In this document: positions 3,569 to 33,421 of the stretch, piece after piece
Layout: every line of letters starts with the position of its first letter
Position numbering within the stretch: the first letter of the stretch is position 1
UHGV virus genome: UHGV-0086138
DNA: 41,245 bases
Source of the DNA: a virus
Direction: 5' to 3' (one strand)
Notes under the pieces: model-generated
Databases searched by the model: none
What the model saw: the letters and a program-made list of their open reading frames with translations, nothing else
Told to the model about the DNA's origin: nothing
Program-made: the position numbers and the translations under genes

Positions 3569-3585
3569 GTTACCGTTGAGGTAAT
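3569..3585. promoter_or_regulatory. operator-like palindrome GTTACCGTTGAGGTAAT overlapping -10/+1 of leftward early promoter
   Basis: matches ATTACCy-N3-AGGTAAT family; lies between TTGACA promoter and the small ORF start. Confidence 0.55.
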
Positions 3586-3630: not shown

Positions 3631-3647
3631 ATTACCCATTAGGTAAT
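3631..3647. promoter_or_regulatory. operator-like palindrome ATTACCCATTAGGTAAT
   Basis: 17-bp inverted repeat upstream of leftward promoter. Confidence 0.6.
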
Positions 3648-3703: not shown

Positions 3704-4288
3704 TTATTGTTTGTTTTTTTCGTTCTGGTTGATGACAAATTCAATGTAACTTTCGATCTTTGCTTTCTCGGTTTCGGGTAACAATGCGTAGCGCGAGCGA
3801 TCATAGTTGATGGTCGCAGGGTCGTGCGGGTGAATCAGTAATTCATAGCCGTGACGCCCGAATGCGGATGCAACATTCTCCAGGGTGGAAATGGAAACGC
3901 TGACCTCATTGTTTAACAGGCGGCTGATTGTCACCTGGGCGACGCCGGATGCGCGGTGTAGTTTTCCCTGCGTTGAAAGGTCGCGGCTTTCGCTCATCCA
4001 GCGTTCCAGGTTGTGAGCCGCCAGCTGACCTATATCACTCGGGCCGACAGGCTGAAAACCTTCCTGAGAAAGCGAGCGATCGATATCAAGCCAGTTACGG
4101 GGTTTATTGGCGGCAGCTTCAATTTTTCGCGCAACCTGGTCGCCGATAACCTTCTTGCCAAGAGCCCAGCGGTTTACCAGATTTGCCTGAGTTCCAAGTT
4201 TTTCTGCCATCCGCGTCTGAACACCATTGAATTCACGGTCGATCAAGTCGTTGAGATTTTGCCTGCGGACGTCCTGGATACTTTTCAT
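3704..4288 (-). CDS. prophage repressor with two XRE-type helix-turn-helix regions; no LexA-like S24 peptidase domain evident
   Basis: 194 aa; HTH-like segments near residues 25-45 and 110-135; divergent from Cro-like gene with three operator palindromes in between. Confidence 0.7.
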   Translation of the reverse strand: MKSIQDVRRQNLNDLIDREFNGVQTRMAEKLGTQANLVNRWALGKKVIGDQVARKIEAAANKPRNWLDIDRSLSQEGFQPVGPSDIGQLAAHNLERWMSESRDLSTQGKLHRASGVAQVTISRLLNNEVSVSISTLENVASAFGRHGYELLIHPHDPATINYDRSRYALLPETEKAKIESYIEFVINQNEKNKQ

Positions 4289-4342: not shown

Positions 4343-4359
4343 ATTACCCAACAGGTAAA
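4343..4359. promoter_or_regulatory. operator O1 ATTACCCAACAGGTAAA (repressor/cro intergenic)
   Basis: first of three tandem palindromes between divergent repressor and cro genes. Confidence 0.65.
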
Positions 4360-4727: not shown

Positions 4728-4744
4728 CGTACCTCAAAGGTAAT
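4728..4744. promoter_or_regulatory. operator-like palindrome CGTACCTCAAAGGTAAT
   Basis: located after cro terminator and before TTGATC promoter-like hexamer. Confidence 0.55.
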
Positions 4745-6721: not shown

Positions 6722-6738
6722 ATTACCCATCAGGTAAT
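6722..6738. promoter_or_regulatory. operator-like palindrome ATTACCCATCAGGTAAT
   Basis: after P-gene terminator. Confidence 0.6.
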
Positions 6739-6783: not shown

Positions 6784-6800
6784 ATTACCTCAGAGGTAAA
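6784..6800. promoter_or_regulatory. operator-like palindrome ATTACCTCAGAGGTAAA overlapping RBS of 6803 gene
   Basis: follows TTGATT-17-TTTAAT promoter-like element; AGGT of right half doubles as Shine-Dalgarno. Confidence 0.6.
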
Positions 6801-10395: not shown

Positions 10396-10424
10396 ACTAT
10401 TACCACAACGGTAACTATTACCAC
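10396..10424 (+). repeat. two 11-bp direct repeats ACTATTACCAC (10396-10406, 10414-10424) just upstream of terS start
   Basis: read directly. Confidence 0.6.
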
Positions 10425-10431
10425 GGTGGTT

Positions 10432-11028
10432 ATGATGCCTGCTGAACCTAAAACCTATAAACGCAAATCAACGCAATTTAAGCCACTAACAGCAATGCAG
10501 GAGGCTTATTGCCAGTCATACATCAAAACGCCTGAAAACCAGACTCAGGCAGCGATTAACGCAGGATTCTCCCCAAATACAGCGGCAGTTAAAGCCAGTG
10601 TCATGATGCGCGATGAACGCATTCAAAAACGGATTGCCGAGCTGATGGAGGAGCGCAACAAACGAATGCGCGTCAGTGCCGATTACGTTCTTATGCGCCT
10701 GGTGGAGATCGACCAGATGGATGTGATCGACATCCTCAACGACGATGGGAGCCTTAAACCAATCCGTGAGTGGCCGAAAATCTGGCGCACTACGCTTAGT
10801 GGCTTTGATCTGTCATCGACCATCATGAACATGAACGAGGATTCGATAGAGACAATCCTCAAAAAAATTAAATGGCCTGACAAGGTGAAGAACCTTGAGC
10901 TGATTGGTAAGCATGTTGATGTCAACGCGTTCAAAGAACGTCTGGATGTTAATGTGAATGTGACAATTGCTGATCGCATAGCAGCAGCCAGGAAGCGACT
11001 CAAAGAACGTCAGGATGGTAATCAGTGA
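10432..11028 (+). CDS. terminase small subunit
   Basis: Precedes large terminase with overlapping stop/start; start placed at ATG 10432 because upstream part of track ORF is low-complexity translation of direct repeats. Confidence 0.65.
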   Translation: MMPAEPKTYKRKSTQFKPLTAMQEAYCQSYIKTPENQTQAAINAGFSPNTAAVKASVMMRDERIQKRIAELMEERNKRMRVSADYVLMRLVEIDQMDVIDILNDDGSLKPIREWPKIWRTTLSGFDLSSTIMNMNEDSIETILKKIKWPDKVKNLELIGKHVDVNAFKERLDVNVNVTIADRIAAARKRLKERQDGNQ

Positions 11029-13145: not shown

Positions 13146-13222
13146 TGGCGTGGCATGCAGGATTCGAACCTGCGACCAACCGCTTAGAAGGCGGTTGCTC
13201 TGTCCAACTGAGCTAATGCCAC
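13146..13222 (-). tRNA. tRNA-Arg (anticodon UCU)
   Basis: Cloverleaf read from reverse complement: 7-bp acceptor stem GTGGCAT/ATGCCAC, D-arm GCTC..GAGC, anticodon stem ACCGC/GCGGT with loop CUUCUAA, T-arm GCAGG-TTCGAAT-CCTGC, 3' CCA encoded. Confidence 0.85.
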
Positions 13223-13543: not shown

Positions 13544-13560
13544 CTTACCTGAAAGGTAAT
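13544..13560. promoter_or_regulatory. operator-like palindrome CTTACCTGAAAGGTAAT upstream of structural operon
   Basis: same motif family, about 90 bp upstream of 13650. Confidence 0.55.
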
Positions 13561-30352: not shown

Positions 30353-30877
30353 TTACCAAAACTTGTACCACGGGGATTTATCCTTCAATGGACAATCCTT
30401 CCATCGTGTGGCTAACCATTCATATTCTTTAAAATATGTGTTTATGTTTTCTTTTTCTCTAATAGCTTGTATAAGAGGTAGCGCAATCTGATAGTTATTT
30501 ACAACGGAGCTGTAAAATACTTCCTTAATCATGGTCTCATCATAAGTTTTCCGCTTCACGCTCACAGCCATGCGTTCGTAGAAACCTAGACAGTAAATTA
30601 TTTCTCTCTTCTCTATCTTTTCTTCATCCGTAAGATCAGCCTGCCCATTGCTTGGATACATATAAGAGCGGAATGATTTGTTCGACTCGTGAATGCGGCG
30701 CATAGTAGATAGGCCTTTCTTATAATCTACATCAAACCTGCTTTCACCAAGGAATACTGAAGTGTGTACTTTTCTCGCTGTATTTACATTATAAATAATA
30801 GTAGCGATAGCTATGAACAAGCCAAGCGAAACCGCGACTGCACTTACGATTTGAGCCACAGCCATGGCAAATTGCAT
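30353..30877 (-). CDS. membrane-anchored protein of unknown function (AT-rich accessory gene)
   Basis: N-terminal TM helix then about 140-aa soluble domain; start ambiguous between ATG 30877 and GTG 30892. Confidence 0.5.
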   Translation of the reverse strand: MQFAMAVAQIVSAVAVSLGLFIAIATIIYNVNTARKVHTSVFLGESRFDVDYKKGLSTMRRIHESNKSFRSYMYPSNGQADLTDEEKIEKREIIYCLGFYERMAVSVKRKTYDETMIKEVFYSSVVNNYQIALPLIQAIREKENINTYFKEYEWLATRWKDCPLKDKSPWYKFW

Positions 30878-30910
30878 TTCTTCACTTAACACAAACTGTC
30901 TCCAGACATG

Positions 30911-31020: not shown

Positions 31021-31037
31021 ATCACCCGTAAGGTAAT
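31021..31037. promoter_or_regulatory. operator-like palindrome ATCACCCGTAAGGTAAT
   Basis: upstream of minus-strand mini-ORF/leader and membrane-protein gene. Confidence 0.5.
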
Positions 31038-31108: not shown

Positions 31109-31819
31109 TCAGAAGAACCCTGCCTTGTCGTTGATGTATTCCGCGTGCGTCTGGATATCACGCAGGCATTTGCTCACACCGACGATGTAGCAGAACATGG
31201 TGGTCAGCTCCGCCGCCGCGCCCGATACGTCGTGCCCGTCTTCCTGTAACTGGTTCAGCAGATTCATCAGCAGTGAGTTCTCCGTCAGGCCGAGAACACC
31301 AGACGGCGAGTGAATCAGGCTGCGGTAGCCGGGCTTCAGCGGGGCGCTGTAGGTTTTGTTCTCTATCTTCATTGCCTGCATCACTGCTGATGCTGTGGCG
31401 TTTGCAACCTGGTCGGCAACCATCTTTATGCGTTCTTCCTGCGGGAGCGAGTTTTTAATGTAACTTCCGGTGCGGCGGATCTGAGGAAGAACCTCACCTG
31501 TAACCCATTTACGAAAGCGGTAGGGGATAGTGCCTGGTGTCACTGCGTCGCGGCAGCGGAGGATCAGTGTGTAGAGGCCTGACTCGGAGATGATGTTGAT
31601 CTCTTTTACTCGGCTGTCAAAAATTGCACGATGTTCATGCCCTATGTTGAACATAGACCTTTCATCATCATCCAGTTTTTCAAGTGCTTGGGTGACGTTT
31701 TGGATACGCAGCGCACTACAAACGTCTTGGGCTACAAACCATGGTTGGCCATCGATAATGATGGAACGGATAGGGTTAACAGATTCAAATTTGAAGATGG
31801 CAGTTTGAGCATTAGCCAT
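31109..31819 (-). CDS. antirepressor (Bro-N domain plus C-terminal antirepressor domain)
   Basis: Bro-N-like N-terminus (FKFESVNPIRSIIIDGQPWFVAQDV); ATG 31819 with GGAG RBS; C-terminal domain paralogous to 32969..33226. Confidence 0.75.
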   Translation of the reverse strand: MANAQTAIFKFESVNPIRSIIIDGQPWFVAQDVCSALRIQNVTQALEKLDDDERSMFNIGHEHRAIFDSRVKEINIISESGLYTLILRCRDAVTPGTIPYRFRKWVTGEVLPQIRRTGSYIKNSLPQEERIKMVADQVANATASAVMQAMKIENKTYSAPLKPGYRSLIHSPSGVLGLTENSLLMNLLNQLQEDGHDVSGAAAELTTMFCYIVGVSKCLRDIQTHAEYINDKAGFF

Positions 31820-31975
31820 GGTGGTTATCTCCACTTAGTGATTTTAATCACCACCGCAACGCCAATTACTGGTGGTGAACTGGACAAGGTTGGCGTACCG
31901 GCCTAAGTGGTACCGGCGTCCTTTCGGACCCCTGCCCAGCCCACCATAATTCGGATATAGCTGTGCTTAACGCAT

Positions 31976-31997
31976 AAAAAAACCACGTCTGGCGTGG
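31976..31997 (-). terminator. intrinsic terminator inside antirepressor leader (minus strand)
   Basis: hairpin CCACG-CCAGA-CGTGG followed by T7 on minus strand, about 160 bp upstream of ant start. Confidence 0.5.
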
Positions 31998-32087
31998 TAT
32001 GCGCCACTTAGTAACTCGGGACGCCAATCCCGGCACTGGATTTTGCCAGTACCCGATTACTATGGCACAAGAGGAGTGCGATGTAAA

Positions 32088-32104
32088 TTTACCGCAAAGG
32101 TAAT
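32088..32104. promoter_or_regulatory. operator-like palindrome TTTACCGCAAAGGTAAT at antirepressor promoter
   Basis: overlaps -10/+1 of a putative minus-strand promoter (TTGATT...TTATCAT). Confidence 0.55.
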
Positions 32105-32181
32105 GATAAACGCGAAGAAATATTAAAAATCAACCGTATTTGGTTGGTTGCGTTTAACGCTTGATCACCTGAAAGCAAGAT

Positions 32182-32198
32182 ATTACCTTTAAGGTAAT
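32182..32198. promoter_or_regulatory. operator-like palindrome ATTACCTTTAAGGTAAT
   Basis: 20 bp upstream of the 32218 gene RBS. Confidence 0.6.
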
Positions 32199-32217
32199 GT
32201 TATTGTGAGGAAAAGCA

Positions 32218-32946
32218 ATGGAAGTTTTCTGGATAGTTGTTGGTGTGGTTGCGGTGATTATTTATGTTATCAACCAGAACAAGACTAAGATCTCTGATCG
32301 TACGGTCGTTAATCATAACAAAACGATAAAGACCGAAGATGGGGAGATAACGATTAATCGTACACAGGTGATAGAACACACCTCTACTCAGTTTCAAAAA
32401 ACTGGAGGTAATGCGCCTAATATTTCCGCACCTCCTGCTTATGATAGTGCGGTAATCCAGACATATTATAAACAGCAGGAGTTAGCAAAAGAGAGGCAAC
32501 TGATTCAGCCAAAGCCGTTTACAGCTGAGCTTCCACCTGGAGTGTCAACGCGTCCGGCATATCATGGAAGATTCCCTGGTGATGACATATCGTCTCAGTC
32601 ATCTAAAAAAGCACCTCAGGCAGTATCAGAGCCAGCAAGAATACCTTCTGTATCGCCGCCAAAAGAAGAATCAGCTAACAGAGTTTCAAGTGGTAGCAAG
32701 CAGTGCTTGCGATGCAGAATAAACCTACCATATGAAAAATTCAGGAAATCGTCAAAAAATCCAGATGGATTGACTAAGTGGTGTGCAAGGTGTCTCGATG
32801 GCCCAAAGAATACACGCCATATGAAGTGGTGCCCAATTTGTAATGTCCGCAGAAAACGAACCAGCTTTTACCCTAATAATCAAAATGCGGACGGATTAAT
32901 GGCATGGTGCAAAACGTGCTGGGATGAGCACAAAGCGAAACGATAG
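32218..32946 (+). CDS. membrane-anchored protein with duplicated C-terminal CxxC zinc-ribbon-like motifs
   Basis: N-terminal TM helix; two repeats of C-x2-C ... DGL-x-(K/A)WC-x(2)-C; GAGGA RBS. Confidence 0.5.
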   Translation: MEVFWIVVGVVAVIIYVINQNKTKISDRTVVNHNKTIKTEDGEITINRTQVIEHTSTQFQKTGGNAPNISAPPAYDSAVIQTYYKQQELAKERQLIQPKPFTAELPPGVSTRPAYHGRFPGDDISSQSSKKAPQAVSEPARIPSVSPPKEESANRVSSGSKQCLRCRINLPYEKFRKSSKNPDGLTKWCARCLDGPKNTRHMKWCPICNVRRKRTSFYPNNQNADGLMAWCKTCWDEHKAKR

Positions 32947-32968: not shown

Positions 32969-33226
32969 TTACCGGGTTTGTTTTCGTAATTGTTCGGCAC
33001 AATAGTCGAGATGTGTTTGCAGATCCCGCATAGACATCTGTGACCTGGTGACGTAGTTAATCAGTGCAGTCAGTTCGGCAAGTGGGCCATCGACATTAAA
33101 TCCATCCTTATCGAGATCCCGGAGTAATTTCATCAAGTGCGATCCCTCCACCAGTGATCTGACGCCTCCCGGCGTGTGAATCCTTTCGGTAAATCCGTCT
33201 TCCAGTGGATAGTGATACTGCTGCAT
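32969..33226 (-). CDS. small antirepressor-domain protein (paralog of Ant C-terminal domain), LexA-box controlled
   Basis: ATG 33226 with GGAG RBS; 86 aa aligns with C-terminal part of the 31109..31819 product; near-consensus LexA box lies upstream, which argues against the track start at 33349. Confidence 0.55.
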   Translation of the reverse strand: MQQYHYPLEDGFTERIHTPGGVRSLVEGSHLMKLLRDLDKDGFNVDGPLAELTALINYVTRSQMSMRDLQTHLDYCAEQLRKQTR

Positions 33227-33245
33227 CTTATCTTCTCCATACGAT

Positions 33246-33265
33246 AACTGTATATTTATACAGTA
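33246..33265. promoter_or_regulatory. LexA (SOS) box AACTGTATATTTATACAGTA
   Basis: CTGT-N8-ACAG with AT-rich spacer, 18 of 20 matches to consensus TACTGTATATATATACAGTA; about 20 bp upstream of the 33226 start. Confidence 0.7.
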
Positions 33266-33301
33266 ACAAATAATTTGTTTGCTATCCAGCACGTTTTGCA
33301 A

Positions 33302-33318
33302 ATCACCTGAAAGGTAAT
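33302..33318. promoter_or_regulatory. operator-like palindrome ATCACCTGAAAGGTAAT
   Basis: in divergent region between small antirepressor gene and tailspike gene. Confidence 0.55.
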
Positions 33319-33421
33319 ATCTGTTCGTATTTATGGGTTGTCTATCCATATGTGGTTTTTTAGGTAATAGAATGACCAGATATGCGGCGCAACGGGTGCT
33401 GCGACTATCTGGAGATTTAAC

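What the first reader, a model, noticed from the sequence alone, without database searches (positions are those of the whole stretch)
31820..32104. Structured 5' leader with internal terminator and triple CCACTTAG repeats upstream of the Bro-N antirepressor
Between the operator/promoter at about 32088 and the antirepressor start (31819) lie about 270 nt containing an intrinsic terminator on the coding strand (31976-31997) and three copies of CCACTTAG (31841, 31903 inverted, 32004). In the transcript the middle copy can pair with either flanking copy, and the copy next to the start codon abuts the GGAG Shine-Dalgarno. This is the architecture of an attenuator or riboregulated leader, reminiscent of post-transcriptional control of ant in P22 immI, and may yield a short terminated RNA of about 100 nt.
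Basis: seen in the sequence. Interest (0 to 1): 0.6.

Follow-up and report, generated by a model that had tools for sequence, protein, structure and literature searches.

The report
P1-type C4 antisense RNA controlling antirepressor
The repeats and terminator upstream of this prophage's antirepressor gene are a copy of a well-known phage RNA switch (the C4 antisense RNA of phage P1 plus an IsrK-like leader RNA) that keeps the antirepressor silent, so the finding is real but ordinary.

Summary
The leader is a known module. Rfam finds a full-length isrK RNA (31976-32052, minus strand, including the terminator) and a full-length C4 antisense RNA (31868-31951, minus strand), both above gathering score. 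The middle repeat is the C4 loop b'. The flanking repeats are targets b1 (inside isrK) and b2 (overlapping the ant Shine-Dalgarno). This reproduces the a1-b1-c4-a2-b2 layout annotated in phage P1. Across 16 non-redundant loci, including P1, P4 and Gifsy-1, b' co-varies with b1 and b2 (0 of 100,000 permutations), and a' co-varies with a1 and a2 (about 98% paired, 4 of 7 pairs compensatory). Published Gifsy-1 compensatory mutations fall exactly in the a1:a' register. The likely mechanism is that processed C4 blocks ant translation, while the terminated IsrK-like RNA carries decoy sites. Unlike P1 and Gifsy-1, there is no icd or orf45 intermediary. The b' allele differs from phiV10/ZX5 although the primary repressor is identical, which predicts P1/P7-like heteroimmunity. 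The module occurs in 455 of 5,426 complete E. coli genomes. It is a new member of a known kind and of low interest.

The parts
32088..32104 (.). Operator-like palindrome (ATTACC-N5-GGTAAA) abutting the -35 of the leader promoter; likely a binding site for the primary repressor.
   Evidence: 17 sites of ATTACC-N5-GGTAAT (up to 2 mismatches) in the window against 1.2 expected, including sites flanking the HTH_3 repressor gene 3704-4288; half-sites are conserved and the spacer varies in ZX5 and phiV10. This parallels operator Oc4 of P1. Binding is inferred.
32059..32087 (-). Promoter of the isrK-C4-ant transcript (-35 TTTACA 32087-32082, TG-extended -10 CATAGT 32064-32059); predicted transcription start near 32052.
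   Evidence: The predicted start coincides with position 1 of the Rfam isrK match. In Gifsy-1 the same model start reproduces the published numbering from the start site.
31976..32052 (-). IsrK-like leader RNA (two 5' hairpins, a1 and b1, and an intrinsic terminator); expected to give a roughly 77-nt terminated RNA, with some read-through.
   Evidence: RF01394, 63.5 bits (gathering 50), full length. RF03163 c4-a1b1, 43.4 bits (gathering 46.7) at 32013-32065. Searches give the fold.
32021..32027 (-). a1: UUGGCGU in the loop of isrK hairpin 2, complementary to a' of C4.
   Evidence: a1:a' is 97.8% paired across 13 loci, 4 of 7 pairs have compensatory changes, and slid controls give 29-55%. The Gifsy-1 mutants G28A/C162U and G31A/C159U fall in this register.
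   Evidence: cognate versus non-cognate permutation, 0 of 100,000; duplex -12.6 kcal/mol.
31976..31998 (-). Intrinsic terminator of the IsrK-like RNA (stem 31998-31982, then a U-run).
   Evidence: it is part of the isrK model. In read-through RNA it is enclosed by a conserved, co-varying lower stem (GCGCAU/AUGCGU).
31868..31951 (-). C4 antisense RNA gene; predicted mature RNA is about 31945-31870 (5' GGU after the RNase P site, 3' ACCA).
   Evidence: RF01695, 66 bits (gathering 45), full length; the predicted mature RNA folds into a 16-bp closing stem plus two hairpins (-43.1 kcal/mol) with a' at least 0.98 unpaired and b' 0.55-1.0 unpaired. The ends are inferred from the P1 misc_RNA coordinates and the GGW RNase P rule.
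31890..31896 (-). a': ACGCCAA in the single-stranded junction of C4.
31859..31865 (-). a2: UUGGCGU, starting 3 nt after the C4 match, the same position as a2 in P1.
   Evidence: a':a2 is 98.9% paired, 4 of 7 pairs compensatory, slid controls 20-35%.
31848..31855 (-). GGUGGUGA box complementary to the C4 3' arm (UCACCACC). It can form a hairpin with a2 in the loop, or pair with ACCACC just before the ant AUG.
   Evidence: a matching helix is present in 17 of 18 loci, with compensatory changes in P4 (GCUAUCGCC/GGCGAUAGC) and Aaphi23.. Its function is not established.
31831..31838 (-). b2: CUAAGUGG, overlapping the ant Shine-Dalgarno (GGAG 31832-31829); the site of translational repression by C4.
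   Evidence: in every locus where b2 could be located (all but Aaphi23) it lies on the SD, the start codon or the first codons of the downstream gene; permutation 0 of 100,000. P1 annotation of b2.
31109..31819 (-). ant: Bro-N antirepressor, the regulated gene.
   Evidence: Pfam Bro-N, 71.5 bits; 81% identical to vB_EcoP_ZX5 ORF4, and identical from about residue 72 onward. Overexpression of ZX5 ORF4 lowers the prophage titre about 1,000-fold (PMC9782041).

Best explanation
This is a P1 immI-type secondary immunity module.

1. One promoter is probably controlled by the primary repressor through an abutting operator. It transcribes isrK, then C4, then ant.
2. Most transcripts stop at the isrK terminator. 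They give a roughly 77-nt IsrK-like RNA that carries sites a1 and b1.
3. Read-through transcripts contain the tRNA-like C4 element. It is cut out (RNase P at AAUUAU|GGU, with a 3' ACCA) as a stable RNA of about 76 nt.
4. The exposed loop b' (CCACUUAG) and junction a' (ACGCCAA) of C4 pair in trans with b2 and a2 on ant mRNA. They cover the Shine-Dalgarno, so Ant is not made and lysogeny and immunity are kept.
5. The a1/b1 copy on IsrK binds the same C4 surfaces. It therefore acts as a competitor (decoy) in trans, or as a partner in cis, that can relieve repression.

Shown here: family membership, the geometry, the accessibility of a' and b', and specific co-variation of both segment sets with both target sets.
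Shown by others in homologues: RNase P processing and repression at the RBS in P1; a1:a' pairing and activation by IsrK in Gifsy-1; antirepressor activity of the ZX5 Ant.
Inferred for this locus: processing, trans action, the decoy role and repressor control of the promoter.
For: - Rfam gives full-length matches above gathering score to C4 and isrK, and a near-threshold match to c4-a1b1.
- The segment geometry matches the P1 record's a1, b1, c4, a2, b2 features. a2 starts 3 nt after the C4 match, and b2 runs into the SD.
- All 14 fetched relatives, plus P1, P4 and Gifsy-1, carry an upstream a1/b1 element in tandem with C4. This element reaches the isrK gathering score in all but Aaphi23 (36.1 bits) and P1 (a c4-a1b1 match only).
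- b' has 15 different sequences among the 16 non-redundant loci (VT2-Sakai and Aaphi23 have only short exact matches), and b1 and b2 follow it. Cognate runs are mostly 8-10 nt against a non-cognate mean of about 4-5 nt; 0 of 100,000 permutations for each target.
- a':a1 and a':a2 are 97.8% and 98.9% paired, with 4 of 7 pairs compensatory and slid controls of 20-55%.
- In the folded mature C4, a' and b' are unpaired. Segment duplexes are -10.3 to -12.6 kcal/mol.
- The Gifsy-1 compensatory mutations map exactly to a1:a', and trans IsrK raised anrP translation 139-fold.
- IsrK and STnc1160 (the C4 homologue) are highly expressed in Gifsy-1 lysogens.
- RNase P processing at GGW and RBS occlusion by b' are reported for P1.
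- The ZX5 Ant homologue behaves as an antirepressor.
Against: - There are no expression or processing data for this phage.
- RNA-RNA pairing of only 7 + 8 nt is short.
- The role of a1/b1 is unresolved even in P1, where the record calls these sites 'putative'.
- c4-a1b1 scores just below its Rfam gathering threshold in the window (43.4 against 46.7).
- The ant leader can also fold on its own and partly bury b2, so repression could have a cis component.
Confidence: 0.82

Rival explanations
1. Purely cis-acting attenuator or riboswitch-like leader. The middle repeat alternates between pairing with the upstream and downstream copies within one transcript, and this decides termination or RBS access. 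No trans-acting RNA is involved.
For: In Gifsy-1 the full-length transcript adopts an inactive cis structure in which the IsrK a1 region pairs with the downstream element. Conserved alternative helices exist in the unprocessed leader.
Against: The terminator lies upstream of the middle copy, so pairing with that copy cannot influence termination of the same nascent RNA. The middle copy sits in a conserved, tRNA-like, RNase P-type C4 structure that is a stable trans-acting RNA in P1, P4 and Gifsy-1, where it is STnc1160. The MFE fold keeps IsrK and C4 as independent domains.
Confidence: 0.1
2. P4-type transcriptional immunity. C4 pairs with a1/b1 and a2/b2 on nascent transcripts and causes premature termination, at the isrK terminator or through Rho, rather than mainly blocking translation.
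For: P4 shows the same isrK-like + C4 tandem by Rfam. The Gifsy-1 authors describe CI/seqA/seqC termination control and suggest STnc1160 could act this way. b1 lies immediately upstream of the terminator and overlaps the conserved lower stem. A blocked ant RBS would expose the RNA to Rho, as with icd in P1.
Against: In every locus where b2 could be located it sits on the translation initiation region, which points to translational control. The candidate antiterminator that involves b1 is only 5 bp and is not conserved. In Gifsy-1, constitutive expression of the downstream RNA did not reduce the IsrK effect.
Confidence: 0.25
3. Gifsy-1-type activation through an upstream ORF. IsrK opens the RBS of a small ORF (orf45) that overlaps C4, and ant is translated by coupling to it.
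For: Gifsy-1 experiments. The conserved AUG in the C4 5' arm is present here at C4 position 5.
Against: In the window that frame stops after 14 codons at the UAG inside the b' loop, 82 nt before the ant AUG. Across loci its length varies from 8 to more than 111 codons. The Gifsy-1 authors themselves noted that the nucleotide sequence, not the amino-acid sequence, is conserved.
Confidence: 0.04
4. The leader encodes a small protein (for example the 56-aa ORF 31866-32036, or the 'hypothetical proteins' annotated over this region in relatives), and the repeats are incidental.
For: ORFs of 34-56 aa exist. Several phage records annotate hypothetical CDSs over the region.
Against: Two Rfam structural matches, base-pair co-variation, non-conserved frames, and no CDS called by PGAP.
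Confidence: 0.02

Closest known systems
Phage P1/P7 immI: c4 antisense RNA - icd - ant (Rfam RF01695 C4, RF03163 c4-a1b1)
   Same: - The order is the same: repressor-controlled promoter, a1, b1, terminator-like hairpin, C4 (b' in the hairpin loop, a' in the junction), a2 3 nt after C4, b2 on the SD, then the antirepressor operon.
- The same RNase P-type 5' GGU and 3' CCA context is present.
- Specificity resides in short variable segments.
- Alleles differ between phages that share the primary repressor, which is the basis of P1/P7 heteroimmunity.
   Different: - b2 overlaps the SD of ant itself. There is no icd gene and no icd-ant coupling.
- Ant is a Bro-N protein, not P1 Ant1/2.
- The upstream part matches isrK fully, whereas P1 matches only c4-a1b1.
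- The host phage is an integrated epsilon15/phiV10-type podovirus, not a plasmid prophage.
Salmonella Gifsy-1 IsrK - orf45 (STnc1160) - anrP (Rfam RF01394 isrK)
   Same: - isrK and C4 lie in tandem 24-25 nt apart, upstream of an antirepressor.
- The a1/a'/a2 sequences are identical (UUGGCGU/ACGCCAA).
- b2 overlaps the antirepressor SD.
- IsrK is a terminated short RNA with read-through.
   Different: - The orf45 frame is absent here (14 codons).
- The b' allele differs.
- The antirepressor family differs, and so does the phage type (lambdoid).
- The published model does not name the downstream element as C4.
Satellite phage P4 immunity: CI RNA with seqA/seqC
   Same: Rfam finds isrK-like (seqA region) and C4 (CI) elements in tandem. 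b2 lies on an SD. The 3'-arm:box helix co-varies.
   Different: The gap between the elements is 107 nt. P4 is reported to act by premature transcription termination. The a and b segments differ, and the downstream genes are replication genes rather than ant.
P22 immI sar RNA / ant
   Same: A small RNA limits antirepressor synthesis post-transcriptionally in a secondary immunity region next to the tailspike gene.
   Different: sar is transcribed from the opposite strand and is fully complementary to its target. No sar match exists in the window, although the relative TL-2011b carries a separate arc-ant-sar module.

Membership tests
C4 antisense RNA (RF01695; P1/P7 c4, P4 CI) | Covariance-model match at or above the curated gathering score, full length | tested here: met
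   66.0 bits against 45, model positions 1-87 of 87.
C4 antisense RNA (RF01695; P1/P7 c4, P4 CI) | Long closing stem enclosing two hairpins, with a single-stranded loop (b') and junction (a') | tested here: met
   Folds of the leader and of the predicted mature RNA. Stem co-variation in 13 loci.
C4 antisense RNA (RF01695; P1/P7 c4, P4 CI) | a' and b' complementary to a2/b2 downstream, with b2 on the RBS of the first gene of the ant operon | tested here: met
   b2 overlaps GGAG of ant. Difference: the first gene is ant itself, not icd.
C4 antisense RNA (RF01695; P1/P7 c4, P4 CI) | A second target set, a1/b1, upstream of C4 on the same transcript | tested here: met
   c4-a1b1 (RF03163) scores 43.4 bits, just under its gathering score of 46.7.
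C4 antisense RNA (RF01695; P1/P7 c4, P4 CI) | Specificity segments co-vary with their targets between phages (the basis of heteroimmunity) | tested here: met
   0 of 100,000 permutations for b':b2 and for b':b1. 4 of 7 compensatory pairs for a'.
C4 antisense RNA (RF01695; P1/P7 c4, P4 CI) | Excision from a longer transcript by RNase P (5' GGW, tRNA-like 3' CCA) | not testable with these tools
   The sequence context is present (AAUUAU|GGUGGG ... CACC-A-CCA). Cleavage itself was not observed.
isrK Hfq-binding RNA (RF01394) | Covariance-model match at or above gathering score, including the Rho-independent terminator | tested here: met
   63.5 bits against 50, model positions 1-77 of 77. The terminator was also found independently.
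isrK Hfq-binding RNA (RF01394) | Located upstream of an antirepressor gene and transcribed from its own promoter, with read-through | tested here: inconclusive
   The position and a promoter-like site are present. Read-through was not measurable.
isrK Hfq-binding RNA (RF01394) | Activation of the antirepressor through translation of orf45 (Gifsy-1 model) | tested here: not met
   The orf45-equivalent frame is 14 codons long and ends in the b' loop.
isrK Hfq-binding RNA (RF01394) | Hfq binding | not testable with these tools
P22 immI sar antisense RNA (RF00262) | sar covariance-model match; RNA encoded opposite the arc-ant junction | tested here: not met
   No sar match in the whole window at gathering score, or in 31700-32250 at E up to 1.

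The most novel reading that the evidence does not exclude
The module may be a self-contained RNA toggle. One promoter would make both the antisense repressor (C4) and its own decoy (the terminated IsrK-like RNA carrying a1/b1), so terminator read-through would set the Ant on/off threshold without any icd or orf45 intermediary. Conserved alternative helices of the unprocessed leader would couple RNase P excision of C4 to the state of the ant initiation region. These helices are the C4 3' arm with the GGUGGUGA box, and the C4 5' arm with the ant start codon. The primary repressor is 100% identical to that of phiV10 and ZX5 while the b'/b1/b2 allele differs. C4 alleles would therefore define P1/P7-like heteroimmunity classes among Uetakevirus-type E. 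coli prophages.
Probability: 0.25. Interest if true: 0.5.

Novelty: new member of a known kind. Interest (0 to 1): 0.25.

Why it matters
It assigns a function to a stretch that genome annotation leaves blank or mislabels as hypothetical ORFs, in a module present in about 8% of complete E. coli genomes.

It shows that epsilon15/phiV10-type podophages use the P1-type RNA-based secondary immunity, acting directly on a Bro-N antirepressor.

It gives a testable prediction: phages with the same primary repressor but different C4 b' alleles (this phage versus phiV10/ZX5) should be heteroimmune.

It also links two literatures that are usually treated separately. Gifsy-1 'IsrK/orf45' is the a1b1-leader plus C4 homologue of P1/P4, and the published Gifsy-1 compensatory mutants are a1:a' pairs.

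Tried and rejected
- P22 sar-type antisense control. No sar match was found in the window. Rejected as the homologue.
- Gifsy-1 orf45 translational coupling. The frame is truncated to 14 codons here and is not conserved elsewhere. Rejected for this locus.
- Small-protein coding of the leader ORFs. Rejected on non-conserved frames and RNA co-variation.
- b1 as part of an antiterminator. Only a 5-bp UGGCG/CGCCA hairpin forms in the nascent RNA, and it is not conserved in phiV10-type sequences. Not adopted.
- The two extra CCACTTAG copies (32774-32781 and 36750-36757) as further C4 targets. Both read CUAAGUGG in the sense mRNA of their genes, but no a-type TTGGCGT lies nearby, and TTGGCGT is not enriched in the window (8 against 6.05 expected). 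Treated as chance.
- C4 5' arm pairing with the ant start codon. It is 95.7% paired, but with no two-sided changes, and the +/-3 slid controls reach 70-77%. Left as unproven.
- Technical failures. One strand folding batch and one repeat finder failed on input limits and were replaced by scripts.

Full report
**Observation**

CCACTTAG occurs exactly at 31831-31838 (+), 31903-31910 (-) and 32004-32011 (+). The window holds 5 copies against 0.69 expected, and no shuffle reached 5. A terminator-like hairpin lies at 31998-31982 and is followed by a U-run to 31976. A promoter-like TTTACA-17-CATAGT with an upstream TG lies at 32087-32059. GGAG at 31832-31829 overlaps the start-proximal repeat. The leader folds far better than shuffled sequence (-103.8 kcal/mol, z = -4.9).

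**Identity**

A scan of the whole window against Rfam at gathering thresholds returned two full-length matches inside the leader. One is C4 antisense RNA (RF01695) at 31868-31951 (-), 66 bits against a gathering score of 45. The other is isrK (RF01394) at 31976-32052 (-), 63.5 bits against 50, and it includes the terminator. A permissive scan adds c4-a1b1 (RF03163, 'a1, b1 targets of C4 antisense RNA') at 32013-32065 with 43.4 bits, just under its cut-off of 46.7. It finds no sar RNA. The upstream repeat lies inside isrK, and the downstream repeat lies on the ant Shine-Dalgarno.

**A second segment set**

I enumerated all complementarity between C4 and the rest of the leader. Only two C4 segments have a complement on both sides. 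They are CCACUUAG (31910-31903) and ACGCCAA (31896-31890). The complement of the second, UUGGCGU, lies at 32027-32021 in the loop of isrK hairpin 2, and at 31865-31859, 3 nt after the C4 match.

The P1 GenBank record annotates exactly this architecture: operator Oc4 over the promoter, a1, b1, c4, a2, b2, icd, ant. In the P1 sequence:
- a1 and a2 are TTGACAG, and b1 and b2 are GTTAGTG.
- b' (CACTAAC) is in the C4 hairpin loop and a' (CTGTCAA) is in the junction.
- a2 starts 3 nt after the C4 match, and b2 runs into the icd SD.

Using P1 nomenclature, the window has a1 32027-32021, b1 32011-32004, b' 31910-31903, a' 31896-31890, a2 31865-31859 and b2 31838-31831.

**Comparative test**

The leader has relatives in 241 phage records. 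Fourteen loci were fetched: phiV10, TL-2011b, PH444, Klebsiella ST512-KPC3phi13.3, Yersinia vB_YpM_41, Salmonella 118970_sal3, VT2-Sakai, P27, IdasGreatGrand, Ayreon, SfV, two Stx phages and Aaphi23. All of them carry an isrK-like element and C4 in tandem. The isrK match reaches its gathering score in 13 of the 14; Aaphi23 scores 36.1 bits. P1, P4 and Gifsy-1 have the same tandem arrangement, although P1's upstream element matches only c4-a1b1.

The b' loop has 15 different sequences among the 16 non-redundant loci. In 12 of the 15 first-batch loci (window included; phiV10, TL-2011b and PH444 share one allele), an exact b' complement of 8-9 nt was found in both b1 and b2. Examples are phiV10 CCTTTTAG/CTAAAAGG, 118970_sal3 CCGATAAC/GTTATCGG, P27 CCTTTTTC/GAAAAAGG and Klebsiella CCTTTGTAG/CTACAAAGG. 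For VT2-Sakai, Stx2_EH1910 and Aaphi23 the exact-match search found only the a-type segment on both sides.

In a matrix of cognate against non-cognate pairs, the diagonal sum was reached by none of 100,000 permutations, for either b2 or b1. The a segments vary less. Where they do change (Klebsiella AGACCAA/TTGGTCT; two Stx phages CTGCGA/TCGCAG), a1 and a2 follow. a':a1 is 97.8% paired and a':a2 is 98.9% paired. Four of 7 pairs show compensatory changes, and slid-partner controls give 20-55%. In every locus where b2 could be located (all but Aaphi23), it lies on the SD, the start codon or the first codons of the downstream gene.

**Experimental anchors from homologues**

- *P1.* C4 is cut from a longer transcript by RNase P at a GGW motif to a 77-nt RNA. 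b' occludes the RBS and a' binds upstream (summarised in PMC5320573; PMC8198154). The window has AAUUAU|GGUGGG at the corresponding 5' site and ...CACC-A-CCA at the 3' end.
- *Gifsy-1.* IsrK is a terminated short RNA. Read-through gives isrK-orf45-anrP mRNA. Trans IsrK raised anrP translation 139-fold, and pairing was proven with G28A/C162U and G31A/C159U (PMC4825925).
- *Mapping the Gifsy-1 mutants.* I placed those residues on the Gifsy-1 sequence. G28 and G31 lie in a1 (26-32), C159 and C162 lie in a' (158-164), and they are in exact antiparallel register. 'orf45' starts at the conserved AUG of the C4 5' arm. The published 'helix b-I' is therefore a1:a', and 'orf45'/STnc1160 is the C4 homologue. 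The Gifsy-1 authors noted only a structural analogy to P4 seqA and CI. A 2025 review still lists IsrK and c4 as unrelated items.
- *Expression.* IsrK and STnc1160 are highly expressed in Gifsy-1 lysogens under all conditions tested.
- *The regulated protein.* It is a Bro-N protein and is 81% identical to ORF4 of vB_EcoP_ZX5, identical from about residue 72 onward. Overexpression of ZX5 ORF4 reduced the prophage titre from 10^9 to 10^6 PFU/mL (PMC9782041).

**Mechanism proposed for this locus**

The promoter at 32087-32059 starts transcription near 32052. Most transcripts end at the terminator and give the IsrK-like RNA with a1 and b1. Read-through transcripts yield C4, predicted mature at about 31945-31870. 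In this RNA a' is at least 0.98 unpaired and b' is 0.55-1.0 unpaired. C4 pairs with b2 (-12.6 kcal/mol) and a2 (-10.3 kcal/mol), covering the ant SD. IsrK offers the same sites (b1 -12.6 and a1 -11.9 kcal/mol), so it can compete for C4, as the Gifsy-1 data imply.

Processing, trans action, the decoy role and the balance between translational control and P4-like termination control are all inferred for this phage.

**Differences from the references**

- There is no icd gene (P1).
- There is no orf45. The frame from the conserved AUG stops after 14 codons at the UAG in the b' loop, and its length varies from 8 to more than 111 codons across loci.

**Context**

- The palindrome ATTACC-N5-GGTAAT occurs 17 times (up to 2 mismatches) against 1.2 expected.
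- Copies flank the HTH_3 repressor gene 3704-4288. This repressor is 100% identical to the phiV10 and ZX5 repressors.
- One copy (32088-32104) abuts the -35 of the leader promoter, like Oc4 in P1.
- phiV10 and ZX5 carry the CCUUUUAG b' allele. The window therefore has the same primary repressor with a different C4 specificity.
- Cross-allele b' duplexes are weaker than cognate ones (-7.1 and -6.8 against -12.6 and -9.2 kcal/mol). This is the P1/P7 situation and predicts heteroimmunity. Because a' is shared, partial cross-reaction cannot be excluded.

**Extra structure**

- A lower stem enclosing the terminator and its U-tract co-varies: GCGCAU/AUGCGU, GCGACAA/UUGUCGC and GGCGAU/AUCGUC.
- A GGUGGUGA box (31855-31848) is complementary to the C4 3' arm in 17 of 18 loci, with compensatory changes in P4 and Aaphi23.
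- A possible helix between the C4 5' arm and the ant start codon is 95.7% paired but has no two-sided changes.
- The roles of all three are unknown.

**Prevalence and annotation**

The leader matches 455 of 5,426 complete E. coli genomes, and 71 records are at least 99% identical. RefSeq leaves the leader unannotated, and several phage records place hypothetical CDSs over it.

**Verdict**

It misses that this is the known C4/IsrK (P1 immI / P4 CI) module. I classify it as a new member of a known kind, with a distinct specificity allele and direct control of a Bro-N ant. Interest is low.

Noticed in passing
window 3569-3585, 3631-3647, 4343-4359, 4728-4744, 6722-6738, 6784-6800, 10399-10433, 13544-13560, 31021-31037, 32088-32104, 32182-32198, 33302-33318: The 17-bp palindrome ATTACC-N5-GGTAAT occurs 17 times (up to 2 mismatches) against 1.2 expected. 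The sites listed sit at promoter-like positions and flank the HTH_3 repressor gene 3704-4288, which is 100% identical to the phiV10 and ZX5 repressors. These look like scattered operators of the primary repressor, reminiscent of the dispersed C1 operators of P1.
   Followed up: partly
window 32969-33349 (-); PGAP-style start near 33226: A small gene next to the tailspike shares the C-terminal domain of Ant (43% identity over 74 aa) but has no Bro-N domain. A promoter-like site at 33344-33316 overlaps one of the palindromes. It could be a truncated paralogue or a modulator of Ant.
   Followed up: partly
window 32218-32946 (+): A 242-aa ORF lies divergent from the leader promoter. It has a hydrophobic N-terminus and a Cys-rich C-terminus (weak Stc1 match, below cut-off). 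It is absent from phiV10 and ZX5 and is preceded by a perfect palindrome at 32182-32198.
   Followed up: no
window 31952-32003 (-): In read-through RNA the isrK terminator and its U-tract are enclosed by a lower stem (GCGCAU/AUGCGU). This stem co-varies across loci (GCGACAA/UUGUCGC, GGCGAU/AUCGUC). It is not part of the Rfam isrK model and its function is unknown.
   Followed up: partly
window 31848-31855 (-) with 31871-31878 (-): A GGUGGUGA box between a2 and b2 is complementary to the C4 3' arm in 17 of 18 loci, with compensatory changes in P4 and Aaphi23. It would place a2 in a hairpin loop, or pair with ACCACC just before the ant AUG.
   Followed up: partly
window 32774-32781 (-) and 36750-36757 (+): Two further CCACTTAG copies both read CUAAGUGG (target orientation) in the sense mRNA of their genes (the 242-aa ORF, and the hexapeptide-repeat transferase gene 36485-37423). 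No a-type site lies nearby, so they are probably chance.
   Followed up: yes
window 30353-30892 (-): A DUF4760 protein gene lies directly downstream of ant. It has its own promoter-like site (31102-31075) followed by a palindrome (31021-31037). It may be a lysogeny-expressed accessory gene.
   Followed up: no
window 13146-13222 (-): A phage-borne tRNA-Arg (anticodon TCT).
   Followed up: no
L002 (TL-2011b) 226-1410 and 397-464; L014 (Aaphi23) 748-828: TL-2011b carries a P22-type arc-ant-sar module in addition to the C4 module. In Aaphi23 the isrK-like region overlaps Rfam 'Aggregatibacter sRNA 82' (RF02900), so that sRNA is probably the a1b1 leader of a C4 module.
   Followed up: no
L017 (Gifsy-1) 34131-34316 (-): The Gifsy-1 'orf45'/STnc1160 region is a full C4 match (69 bits). 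The published compensatory mutants G28A/C162U and G31A/C159U are a1:a' pairs. This equivalence is not stated in the Gifsy-1 paper or in a 2025 review.
   Followed up: yes
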